A stretch of DNA of 64,000 nt, from contig CAVWVQ010000003.1 of the NCBI GenBank assembly GCA_963758525.1, positions 3,616,001 to 3,680,000 on the forward strand. Reading direction: 5' to 3'. This DNA is from an uncultured Phycisphaerales bacterium. GTDB taxonomy: Bacteria > Planctomycetota > Phycisphaerae > Tepidisphaerales > Tepidisphaeraceae. How positions within the stretch are numbered: the first letter of the stretch is position 1; each line of letters begins with the position of its first letter. Shown here one piece after another: positions 55,039 through 58,000 of this stretch. Position numbers and translations under genes: made by a program. The notes beneath the pieces were generated by a model. That model was not told where the DNA came from, ran no database searches, and saw only the letters and a list, made by a program, of their open reading frames with translations.

Positions 55039-58000
55039 GGTCAAGCTCTTAAGGGTGTATGGTGGATGTCTTGGCATCGAGAGGCGACGAAAGACGTGGA
55101 AGCCTGCGATAAGCTCCGGGAAGCTGGCAATCAAGCATTGATCCGGAGATTTCTGAATGCGGAAACGCGGCTCGGGTAACACCGAGTCACCTGCGGCTGA
55201 ATGTATAGGCCGTATGGAGCGAACCTGGGGAACTGAAACATCTAAGTACCCAGAGGAAAAGAAAGAGACATCGATTCCGTAAGTAGCGGCGAGCGAAAGC
55301 GGAAATAGCCCAAACCAGGATTCGTCCTGGGGTTGCGGAAGCACTGAGGGGTTACAAAACCAATCCTAGCTGAAGACTTCAGGAATGTTGTCCCATAGAG
55401 GGTGATAGGCCCGTAAGCGACAGGATCAGGTCCCCGTTAATATGTGCTCTCCAGAGTAGCACGGAGCTCGTGGAACTCCGTGTGAAGCTGCCCGGCCCAC
55501 CGGGCAAGGCTAAATACTCCTCGATGACCGATAGTGAACAAGTAGGGCGATTGAACGATGAAAAGTACAGCTACTAGCTGAGTGAAAAGTACCTGAAACC
55601 ATACACTTACAAGCGGTCGGAGCTCTATGCCCGCAAGGGAAAAGAGTGACGGCGTACCTTTTGCATAATGGACCGGCGAGTGCATGTTTGCGGCAAGGCT
55701 AAGGTGTCAAGCACCGGAGCCGTAGCGAAAGCGAGTCTTAAGATGGCGCTAAGTCGCGGGCATGCGGCCCGAAACCCCGTGATCTACCCATGAGCAGGTT
55801 GAATGTCCCGTAAAAGGGACAGGAGGACCGAAGCCGTGAACGTTGAAAAGTTCTGGCATGACTTGTGGGGAGGAGTGAAAGTCTAATCAAACGGGGAGAT
55901 ATCTGGTTCTCTTCGAAATGCCTTTAGGGGCAGCCTCGAGAAACTACTCTATGGGGGTAGAGCTACTGAAAGGAGACGTGGGGCTACCCGCCTACACGCT
56001 CCTACCAAACTCCGAATACCATAGAGACTATCTCGGGAGTGAGTCCGCGAGGGATAATCTTCGCGGTCAAAAGGGAAACAACCCTGATCGTCTGTTAAGG
56101 TCCCAAAATCCAGCTTAGTTCGTTAGGAAGTTATTGTTCTGAGACAGCCAGGATGTTGGCTTAGAAGCAGCCACCATTTAAAAAGTGCGTAATAGCTTAC
56201 TGGTCGAGAACAGTAGCGCCGTAAATGATCGGGAATAAGCAGGATACCGAAACAGCGGGAGCGAAAGCTCGGTAGAAGAGCGCTGCACGCCGCGTCGAAG
56301 CCATACCGTAAGGAGTGGTGGAGCGCGTGCAGGTGAGAATGCCGGTATGAGTAACGATAATGCAGGTGAAAATCCTGCACGCCGAAAGCCTAAGGTTTCC
56401 TGGGGAAGGTAAATCCGCCCAGGGTTAGTCGGCACCTAAGACGAGGCCGAAAGGCGTAGCCGATGGACGGCAGGTTAATATTCCTGCACTGGCTGTGAAG
56501 GTTGAACCTCTGCATGTGTCTTTCCAAGGCAGATCCACCGATTAGTCGTGGTGGTTGGGAGCGTCGTAAGGCGTTAGCTCGAGGCCGCTTTGTTGCTGAA
56601 GTCTGTGGAGGAGGGACCGAGAAAAGTGCAGAGGCGACGACACGGTCAACCGTACTAAAACTGACACAGGTAGGCGAGGAGAGTATCCTCAGGCGCTCGA
56701 GAGAACTGCGGTTAAGGAACTAGGCAATCTAACCCCGTAACTTAGGGAGAAGGGGTCCCCTCGCGCAAGCAAGGGCGCAGGAATCAGCCTGGGCGACTGT
56801 TTATCAAAAACACAGCTCTGTGCCAACTCGCAAGAGGATGTATACAGAGTGACGCCTGCTCGGTGCCGGAATGTTAAGGAAGTTGGTCAGGGGTTCGCCC
56901 CGAAGCTAGCAACCGAAGCACCGGTAAACGGCGGCCGTAACTATGACGGTCCTAAGGTTAACGCACTTCGCTAGCCTTAGTAAAACTTGGCTATTTGCTG
57001 GAAAGTCTGAGTATCCCTCACTACTCGCTTCGCTCGTGATTTGAAATCCCAAATTTGAGATTTGGAATTGCGGATCTGAGATCTCAATTTGAGATCTGAG
57101 ATTCACCGTGAAGCAGTGACAACGTGCAGGGTGCAGGCAATCAGCAGGAAAGGCCGGACGAAGCATTCGCTTCATTCCGGAATCCTCAGAGACTACACGC
57201 CAGGGATCTGGATCAATGCCAGATCAAGATATAGTCCGAGCTGCATGGCGACATGCAGAGGCCGGCAGAAATGCCCGGTCCTTCTTTTGAGATCTCAAAT
57301 CTCAAATTTGAGATCTCAAATGGCGAACATCGTTCGCCGAGGAAGTAACAACGAATCTGAGCGAAGTTCCTTGTCGGGTAAGTTCCGACGTGCATGAACG
57401 GCGTAACGACTTGGGCGCTGTCTCGACCGCAGACTCGGTGAAATTGAAGTGGCGGTGAAGATACCGTCTACGCGCAGCAAGACGGAAAGACCCCATGGAC
57501 CTTTACTGCAACCTGGTACTGACGCCGGGTGTGGACTGCGTAGGATAGGTGGGAGGCGTTGATCCCTCGGTTCTGGCCGAGGGGGAGCCAACGGTGAAAT
57601 ACCACCCTGTTTGCATTCGTCGTCTCACCCTGACCCATGAATCTGGGCAGGGAACAGTGCTAGGCGGGCAGTTTGACTGGGGCGGTCTCCTCCAAAAGAG
57701 TAACGGAGGAGTGCAAAGGCAAGCTCAGAACGGTTGGCAATCGTTCGTCGAGCGTAAAGGTAGAAGCTTGCTTGACTGCGAGTGCTACGGCACAAGCAGA
57801 GATGAAAGTCGGCCTTAGTGATCCTGTGGTAGCGTGTGGAAGCGCCATAGCTCAACGGATAAAAGGTACCCTGGGGATAACAGGCTGATCGCCTCCGAGC
57901 GTCCATAGCGGCGAGGCGGTTTGGCACCTCGATGTCGGCCCATCGCATCCTGGGGCTGAAGGCGGTCCCAAGGGTTTGGCTGTTCGCCAATTAAAGCGGT

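What the first reader, a model, noticed from the sequence alone, without database searches (positions are those of the whole stretch)
56959..57359. ORF-less group I intron in a planctomycete-like 23S rRNA at the 1931 site
Seen: a 401-nt insert splits the conserved ggtcctaaggt|agcgaa junction. P1 forms between exon CUAAGGU and GCCUUAG (56974-56980) with the U-G splice pair. P10 forms between UUCGCU (56967-56972) and exon AGCGAA. P3 is cttggc/gccagg, P4 tgctg/cagca, P7 gacta/tagtc, P8 gatctgg/ccagatc, P9 has a GCGA tetraloop, and the last base is G. Established: bacterial 23S group I introns are rare, and introns at this site in Thermotoga and Simkania encode LAGLIDADG homing endonucleases. This one has no endonuclease ORF. 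Inference: an intact ribozyme that lost its homing gene; I do not know of a description in this lineage.
Basis: partly seen in the sequence, partly recalled or inferred. Interest (0 to 1): 0.85.

Follow-up and report, generated by a model that had tools for sequence, protein, structure and literature searches.

The report
Gene-less self-splicing intron in planctomycete 23S
The only assembled 23S ribosomal RNA gene of this planctomycete is split by a 401-base group I intron that carries no endonuclease gene and likely cuts itself out of the RNA; gene-less introns of this kind are already reported in bacterial 23S genes, so this is an ordinary example in a host group where I found no earlier report.

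Summary
Real but ordinary. It has no endonuclease ORF. The assembly has one 23S gene, no intron-less allele and no LAGLIDADG_1 gene. Relatives carry a LAGLIDADG ORF in P6, where this copy has a short hairpin, so loss of the gene is the best reading. Splicing is inferred, not shown: core and 3' splice-site pairs covary across 49 relatives and one relative's contig has a circle-type junction, but no read proves ligation in this organism. The premise of rarity fails: 28 of 73 complete L1931 inserts from a capped GTDB scan are short and lack the motif, and PMC11270868 reports 222 ORF-less group I introns in CPR 23S genes. In the host family 4 of 58 genomes with the site assembled carry it. New detail: outer loops hold each host's own repeat arrays (4 of 4 tested), with precedent in the Nostoc tRNA-Leu intron. 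This scan noted L1931 introns, ORF-less ones included, on other DNA before.

The parts
55039..58330 (+). 23S rRNA gene, the only one in the assembly, interrupted once
   Evidence: Rfam RF02541 2558.6 bits; one 5' half, one 3' half, no intron-less junction in G000
56952..56958 (+). End of 5' exon (CUAAGGU, last base = E. coli U1931); 5' strand of P1
56959..57359 (+). Group I intron, 401 nt, no P2, no endonuclease ORF
   Evidence: RF00028 65.3 bits; Pfam negative for 4 frames
56967..56980 (+). Internal guide: UUCGCU (P10, pairs with AGCGAA) and GCCUUAG (P1; G56974 pairs with U56958)
56986..57000 (+). P3 5' strand (56986-91), J3/4, P4 5' strand (56996-57000)
57036..57106 (+). Array of host 7-base repeat units AT(T/C)T(G/C)A(A/G) forming two hairpins at the tip of P5b; dispensable
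   Evidence: 21 other matches in G000; replaced by 6 or 15-16 nt in near-identical introns of runs X1, X4, X5; 34 nt shorter in L164
57142..57185 (+). P4 3' strand and P6 (57147-49/57183-85); the short P6 hairpin stands where relatives carry a ~450-nt LAGLIDADG coding stretch
57189..57237 (+). Catalytic core: P7 (57191-95/57232-36; G57191-C57236 is the predicted guanosine-binding pair), P3 3' strand (57199-204), P8 (57205-11/57219-25), J8/7
   Evidence: role of the pair from established group I structure
57239..57258 (+). P9.0 5' strand (AG, pairs with CU 57357-58) and P9 hairpin with GCGA loop
57286..57320 (+). Second host 7-base repeat array, a perfect 15-bp hairpin in the P9.2 region
57357..57359 (+). 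P9.0 3' strand (CU) and terminal omega-G
57360..57365 (+). Start of 3' exon (AGCGAA), 3' strand of P10
54841..54866 (+). Same 7-base repeat array upstream of the 23S gene (likely leader)
58365..58394 (+). Same 7-base repeat array in the 23S-5S spacer

Best explanation
This is a group I intron at E. coli position 1931 of the host's single assembled 23S rRNA gene; it encodes no endonuclease, likely splices itself out of the precursor RNA, and likely descends from an intron that carried a LAGLIDADG gene in loop P6. Mechanism (inferred from established group I chemistry): the guide pairs with the 5' exon (P1, U56958-G56974), a free guanosine bound at G57191-C57236 attacks after U1931, P9.0 and P10 line up omega-G57359 with the 3' exon, and the exons are joined as AAGGU-AGCGAA, releasing the intron as a linear or circular RNA. 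Without its gene it cannot home alone and would persist by inheritance. Its outer loops are free to drift and have taken up the host's own 7-base repeats. Shown: position, fold, family membership by covariance model, absence of an ORF, ORF in P6 of relatives, host-matched arrays. Inferred: splicing in this organism, direction of gene loss, vertical persistence.
For: RF00028 65.3 bits; all helices pair. Across 49 non-redundant relatives: G-C binding pair 49 of 49; P7 position 4 U-A 36 / C-G 13; P3 position 1 C-G 24 / U-A 17 of 43 scored; P9.0 first pair Watson-Crick in 46 of 49 in four types, second in 37 of 49 against a shuffle mean of 17.4, 0 of 10000 shuffles reaching it. One 23S gene and no intron-less junction in G000, so working ribosomes need removal. 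Repeat units occur in leader (2), intron (6) and spacer (2) but 0 in 2,999 nt of mature 23S and 5S, as expected of removed RNA. L175 joins an intron 3' end to intron sequence near the 5' end with no exon, a circle-type junction. L079 and L172 share the core and hold a Pfam LAGLIDADG_1 ORF in P6; L035 (520 nt) is the sister of L172 without the motif (97/97). Near-orthologue L164: 99.6% identical 3' exon, different array lengths. Relatives' intron sequence lies in RNA runs X5, X6, X16.
Against: No read shows ligated exons from this organism: the exact 401-nt skip is in RNA run X6 but also in DNA runs X1 and X3, so intron-less alleles of other species explain it; no run held half of the words. 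L175 is another organism's intron, its library type is not given and it is a mosaic of two variants. The covariation counts use motif-anchored, related sequences, so invariance is partly built in and shuffles overstate. The assembly is 90.9% complete; a second rRNA copy could be missing. The four same-family introns do not form a supported clade (one-clade test p-AU 0.107), so single loss and vertical descent are not shown. A Simkania L1931 intron was published as unspliced (title seen in a reference list).
Confidence: 0.85

Rival explanations
1. The intron splices but arrived already without its gene: it spread sideways by recombination or with help in trans from an endonuclease-bearing relative at the same site, so the gene was lost elsewhere, not in this lineage.
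For: Patchy: 4 of 58 same-family genomes with the site assembled; same-genus G002 is intron-less; no supported clade for the family's introns; 11 of 13 distinct sequence types with this guide in metagenomes lack the ORF; no P6-ORF form among the 8 class-level hits.
Against: Patchiness also fits repeated intron loss; one clade is not rejected (p-AU 0.107); the host-matched arrays and the 99.6% orthologue L164 show residence in the host line; G000 has no LAGLIDADG_1 gene to act in trans.
Confidence: 0.2
2. The intron is not spliced and stays in the mature 23S rRNA, as was reported for Simkania at the same site.
For: [quoted passage not shown] RNA-run contigs of relatives span the 5' junction. 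No maturase: the Thermotoga L1931 protein has maturase-like activity (PMC3984707 passage).
Against: Splice-site helices P9.0, P10 and the guanosine site are kept with compensatory changes; precursor RNA or DNA carry-over also spans the junction; a 401-nt insert at 1931 in the only 23S gene would be expected to hinder the subunit interface (established ribosome structure, inference); circle-type junction in L175.
Confidence: 0.05
3. It behaves as an intervening sequence: RNase III cuts the long repeat hairpins and the 23S is left in two pieces without ligation.
For: Long near-perfect hairpins (57286-57320); heptamer repeats flank the Coxiella IVS (PMC4990558) and an IVS-protein insert in the 23S of G203.
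Against: The insert ends do not form one closing stem but P1, P10 and P9.0; full ribozyme core; PMC11270868 places IVS-type inserts at other sites (23IS2, 23IS4); near-identical introns lack the P5b array.
Confidence: 0.03
4. Assembly artefact or contaminating contig.
For: Contamination estimate 6.07%.
Against: Lies in a 5.0-Mb contig; independent contigs L164, L170 and runs X1, X3, X4, X6 show the same exon-intron junction; internal repeats match this genome.
Confidence: 0.01

Closest known systems
ORF-less group I introns of CPR (Patescibacteria) 23S rRNA genes (Tsurumaki et al. 2024, PMC11270868)
   Same: Group I by the same Rfam model, in 23S, no ORF; 222 such cases; ORF-bearing and ORF-less forms at the same sites 23IS6-14 (which include 1931), alike outside the ORF (passages).
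   Different: Host is a Phycisphaerae-type planctomycete with a 6.5-Mb assembly, not a reduced CPR genome; one intron only; repeat-filled loops are not mentioned in the passages read. Supplements not opened.
L1931 group I introns of Thermotoga, Simkania negevensis and Synechococcus (Haugen et al. 2007, PMC1995217)
   Same: Same insertion site; IC1-like with complex P5 and no P2 as described for the Synechococcus L1917 and L1931 introns (passages).
   Different: Those are 654-700 nt with 143-167 aa LAGLIDADG proteins; this is 401 nt with none. Its ORF-bearing relatives carry the ORF from P6 through P7/P3, the layout that paper gives for L1917. I had no Thermotoga or Simkania sequence to align.
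[quoted passage not shown]
   Same: Peripheral stem-loop of a group I intron built from 7-nt repeat motifs (Class I TDNGATT, Class II NNTGAGT), variable in length, repeatedly replaced (passages).
   Different: tRNA intron in cyanobacteria; here an rRNA intron, arrays in P5b and P9.2 (P6, P1 or P9 in relatives), and a different repeat family in each host tested.
Thiomargarita dsrA group I intron with a genome-wide MITE in P9 (PMC4853749)
   Same: A host repeat sits in a peripheral loop of an ORF-less group I intron and recurs across the genome (section 20).
   Different: A defined MITE with terminal repeats in a protein-gene intron; here degenerate tandem heptamers with no element ends identified.
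Coxiella burnetii Cbu.L1917
   Same: Short 23S group I intron spliced from the precursor (PMC4990558 passage); that it lacks an ORF and ends in A is recalled, the paper was not held.
   Different: Other named site; the window's intron ends in the canonical G.

Membership tests
Group I intron (Rfam RF00028) | Covariance-model score above the gathering cut-off | tested here: met
   65.3 bits vs 50
Group I intron (Rfam RF00028) | [quoted passage not shown] | tested here: met
   U56958-G56974, 7-bp P1
Group I intron (Rfam RF00028) | Core P3, P4, P6, P7, P8 with guanosine-binding G-C pair | tested here: met
   pair kept in 49 of 49 motif-anchored relatives
Group I intron (Rfam RF00028) | Terminal omega-G with P9.0 and P10 | tested here: met
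   G57359; P9.0 covaries; P10 6 bp
Group I intron (Rfam RF00028) | Guanosine-dependent splicing with exon ligation | tested here: inconclusive
L1931 rDNA introns | Insertion after E. coli U1931 | tested here: met
Mobile (homing) L1931 intron | Intact single-motif LAGLIDADG ORF in a peripheral loop | tested here: not met
   No Pfam hit in 4 frames scanned; none in the genome
IC1-like, P2-less bacterial rDNA introns (Haugen 2007) | No P2, extended P5, plain P7 without P7.1/P7.2 | tested here: met
   P1 is followed by 5 nt then P3; P5 domain 57001-57141; P7 runs into P3. Subgroup label taken from the paper, no subgroup models run
RNase III-type intervening sequence (IVS) | Ends form one closing stem at helix 25/45-type sites, no ribozyme core | tested here: not met
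   Full core, site 1931
MITE-containing intron | Discrete element with terminal inverted and target repeats, dispersed as a unit | tested here: inconclusive
   Matches elsewhere in G000 are 72-96% alike over 24-75 nt tandem units; element ends were not searched for systematically

The most novel reading that the evidence does not exclude
Each host's own 7-base repeat family is deposited preferentially into RNA that is cut out of rRNA precursors (16S leader, 23S leader, intron loops, 23S-5S spacer, IVS), through an RNA-linked route or as a processing signal, and ORF-less planctomycete L1931 introns record this independently in each lineage: 4 of 34 repeat clusters in G000 lie in such pieces against about 0.05 expected, and 4 of 4 introns tested carry their own host's repeat. 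The introns would then be a ready test system for how these unexplained bacterial heptamer arrays spread.
Probability: 0.15. Interest if true: 0.55.

Novelty: new member of a known kind. Interest (0 to 1): 0.2.

Why it matters
It extends the host range of 23S group I introns to Phycisphaerae and shows both states of the gain-and-loss cycle within Planctomycetota (ORF-bearing L172-type, degenerate L035, ORF-less). It adds to the evidence that rRNA introns are common in uncultured soil and peat bacteria, not confined to thermophiles, parasites and CPR. In practice such inserts break 23S annotation and primers. The host-matched repeat arrays give a marker of how long an intron has lived in a lineage and a possible handle on heptamer repeats whose spread is unexplained (PMC4679880 abstract: 'no mechanism is evident'). 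It changes no mechanism of splicing or homing.

Tried and rejected
1) Direct proof of splicing from public runs: all eight layings were contigs; the 401-nt skip is in DNA runs X1 and X3 as well as RNA run X6, so it is no proof. A joint in X5 skipping 402 with one other letter and an X5 loose end running from P9 into guide-like sequence are single contigs of other organisms and were not counted. Runs with a share near 0.20 or less that I did not lay are no evidence. 2) Hidden or trans-acting endonuclease: none in 4 frames, none by tblastn with five relatives' proteins beyond the RNA-core overlap, none by PF00961. 3) Second rRNA copy or second group I intron in G000: none. 4) One origin for the family's introns: tree unresolved, neither shown nor rejected; some long branches may come from imperfect segment extraction. 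5) Link between the window's repeat family and four-helix-bundle (PF05635) genes: none of 8 such genes lies within 5 kb of the 34 clusters (compared by hand). 6) PDB searches with L079 and L028 proteins returned general LAGLIDADG enzymes and did not tell subfamilies apart. 7) Rfam on 9 and on 6 loci failed; only L164, L175, L024, L022 were confirmed as RF00028, and L172 did not reach the cut-off, probably because its ORF splits the core; the other relatives are called group I by motif or alignment only. 8) Four primary papers were not held; no paper held 'Cbu.L1917' with the other terms. 9) Record labels Myxococcales (L031) and Spirochaetaceae (L073) were not trusted: their 23S flanks group with Planctomycetia (97/90).

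Full report
Observation. The window holds a 23S gene at 55039-58330 and a 5S gene at 58544-58651. A 401-nt insert at 56959-57359 splits GGTCCTAAGGT from AGCGAAGTTCC. In E. coli rrlH (gene starts at locus 260) the same 17-mer starts at locus 2180, which makes the junction T position 1931. The insert matches Rfam RF00028 at 65.3 bits against a cut-off of 50 and folds with z = -7.0. Added here: no P2, P6 at 57147-49/57183-85, P9.0 at 57239-40/57357-58.

Host and copy number. The assembly G000 (6.47 Mb, 6 contigs, 90.9% complete, 6.1% contamination) has one 16S, one 23S and no intron-less junction, one group I intron and no LAGLIDADG_1 gene. The intron of same-family handle G401 (L022) has the same length and BLAST profile as that of L057, whose record title reads Phycisphaerales; the window's 3' exon groups with its family at 99/99. 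So 'Phycisphaerae-type planctomycete' is supported.

No endonuclease. Ten ORFs of 30 aa or more overlap the insert; the four I scanned have no Pfam hit. The closest ORF-bearing relatives, L079 (Acidobacteria title, 688 nt) and L172 (702 nt, planctomycete-type exon letters), share the core and carry a LAGLIDADG_1 ORF that starts at P5/P4, fills P6 and runs through P7/P3. In the window P6 is a short hairpin. L035 (Pirellulales title, 520 nt, no motif) is sister to L172 (97/97), an intermediate state. Loss from P6 is therefore the simplest reading; where it happened is open.

How common. Same family: of 141 genomes, 55 show the intron-less junction (one, G004, is unpublished) and 4 the intron junction; G012 shows both, so 4 of 58 with the site assembled, and 83 show neither. 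Same-genus G002 is intron-less. Same class: 8 of 401, 5 short without ORF and 3 with a LAGLIDADG ORF lying in P8, another subtype; intron-less alleles were not counted there. GTDB: the scan stopped at 120 loci; 47 were dropped because the 5' junction was not in the DNA held; of 73 complete inserts 38 have a LAGLIDADG-like frame, 28 are under 560 nt without one, 7 are long without one. Titles of the short ones include Actinomycetota, Acidobacteria, Proteobacteria, Eremiobacterota, Ignavibacteriota, CPR and Planctomycetota. Metagenomes, with a pattern biased to this intron's guide: 39 loci, 36 complete, 2 with the ORF, 13 distinct types. Rfam confirmed L022, L024, L164 and L175; L172 stayed below cut-off; the rest are assigned by motif.

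Does it splice. Indirect evidence is good. Over 49 non-redundant relatives the guanosine-binding pair is invariant, P7 position 4 and P3 positions 1-2 change in compensating ways, and P9.0 next to omega-G covaries: 46 of 49 and 37 of 49 Watson-Crick, shuffle mean 17.4 for the second pair. These rows are related and motif-anchored, so the test overstates. Contig L175 runs from an intron 3' end straight into intron sequence upstream of the guide with no exon; all 36 complete metagenome introns start with T, so the join is likely omega-G to position +2, as in a circle that has shed its first base (recalled pattern; library type unknown, two variants mixed). Direct evidence is lacking. No run held half the words. 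Near-identical and related introns appear in RNA runs X5, X6, X16 and DNA runs X1, X3, X4, all as contigs; the exact 401-nt skip is in X6 but also in X1 and X3, so intron-less neighbours explain it. Against: the Simkania L1931 intron was published as unspliced (title only), and the Thermotoga protein has maturase-like activity, so host help may be needed.

Repeat arrays. P5b (57036-57106) and P9.2 (57286-57320) are built of units AT(T/C)T(G/C)A(A/G). G000 has 34 clusters of three or more units, 0 in two shuffles; 8 of 34 lie mostly inside a crude ORF model that covers 73% of the genome. The P5b tip is dispensable: contigs with 0-4 differences in the laid core pieces carry 6 or 15-16 nt there, and L164 carries a 34-nt shorter array. 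In a five-genome cross-test each intron's array matched its own host: L022 1 other place, only in G401; L023 59, only in G061; L026 6, only in G203; the window's 21 in G000, but also 8 in G012 and 3 in G203. G012's intron was not tested as a query. Four of the 34 clusters lie in likely removed rRNA pieces: 16S leader, 23S leader, intron, 23S-5S spacer, with none in mature 23S or 5S; a rough Poisson expectation is 0.05, chosen after seeing the data and without an expression-matched control. The phenomenon has precedent: 7-nt repeat motifs build P6b of the Nostoc tRNA-Leu intron (PMC4476775), and a genome-wide MITE sits in P9 of the Thiomargarita dsrA intron (PMC4853749).

History. A tree of 187 core columns for 50 introns is mostly open; the window groups with L164/L170 (100/96) but the family's introns form no supported clade and one clade is not rejected (p-AU 0.107). 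Vertical descent with losses and sideways spread both stand.

Literature seen. PMC11270868: passages, supplements not opened; Table S3 may list ORF-less introns at 1931 by name. PMC1995217: passages with Table 1. PMC3984707: passages. PMC4853749: passages and section 20. PMC4990558: passages. PMC4476775: passages. PMC4679880: abstract and outline. Raghavan 2007, Everett 1999, Nesbo 2003 and Vicens 2008 were not held; what I say of them is a reference title or recalled. Searches for a planctomycete 23S group I intron listed 7, 6, 1 and 9 papers, none on that subject by title and abstract start; the library lacks most subscription journals.

Verdict. A genuine ORF-less group I intron at a known site, of a kind already counted in hundreds, in a host class for which I found no report. 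New member of a known kind; interest 0.2.

Noticed in passing
window 54841-54866 and 58365-58394; G000:C3:29154-29174: The same 7-base repeat arrays sit upstream of the 23S gene, in the 23S-5S spacer and 66-86 nt upstream of the 27F landmark of the unlinked 16S gene; none in mature 23S or 5S.
   Followed up: partly
L175:540-620: Contig joins an intron 3' end directly to intron 5' sequence with no exon and mixes two variants with different P6 contents, as expected from circular intron RNAs; its P9 region holds long purine/pyrimidine repeat arms.
   Followed up: partly
L018:1-818 (G012:C65): Two introns 14 nt apart: an upstream one at about 1917 with what looks like the end of an endonuclease frame, then the ORF-less L1931 relative; G012 also has an intron-less junction on contig C95.
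   Followed up: no
L026:1-370 (G203:C25): The 23S gene of G203 holds an insert encoding a PF05635 four-helix-bundle protein upstream of about position 1265, followed by the same repeat family that fills its L1931 intron.
   Followed up: partly
L109:1516-1801: A tick endosymbiont labelled Coxiella has a 287-nt ORF-less intron of this family at 1931 that ends in A, 14 nt after another intron. Five of 36 short family members end in A.
   Followed up: no
L031 and L073: Records titled Myxococcales and Spirochaetaceae carry 23S flanks that group with Planctomycetia, likely mis-binned rRNA contigs.
   Followed up: partly
run X1, loose end before window 56983: A related intron core follows the 23S sequence GTCGTGAGACAG, that is another insertion site near 2604.
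   Followed up: no
L153:611-1264: A family member whose P6 holds about 170 nt that read like a fragment of an unrelated membrane-protein frame, and whose P9 region holds long repeat arms.
   Followed up: no
window 62429-63469: Tandem 8-base-type repeats (frames read PSSLRPFV repeatedly) between genes, a second repeat family in this genome.
   Followed up: no
window 55039-58651: 23S and 5S genes stand apart from the 16S gene (about 3.64 Mb away on C3) with no tRNA gene in the window.
   Followed up: no
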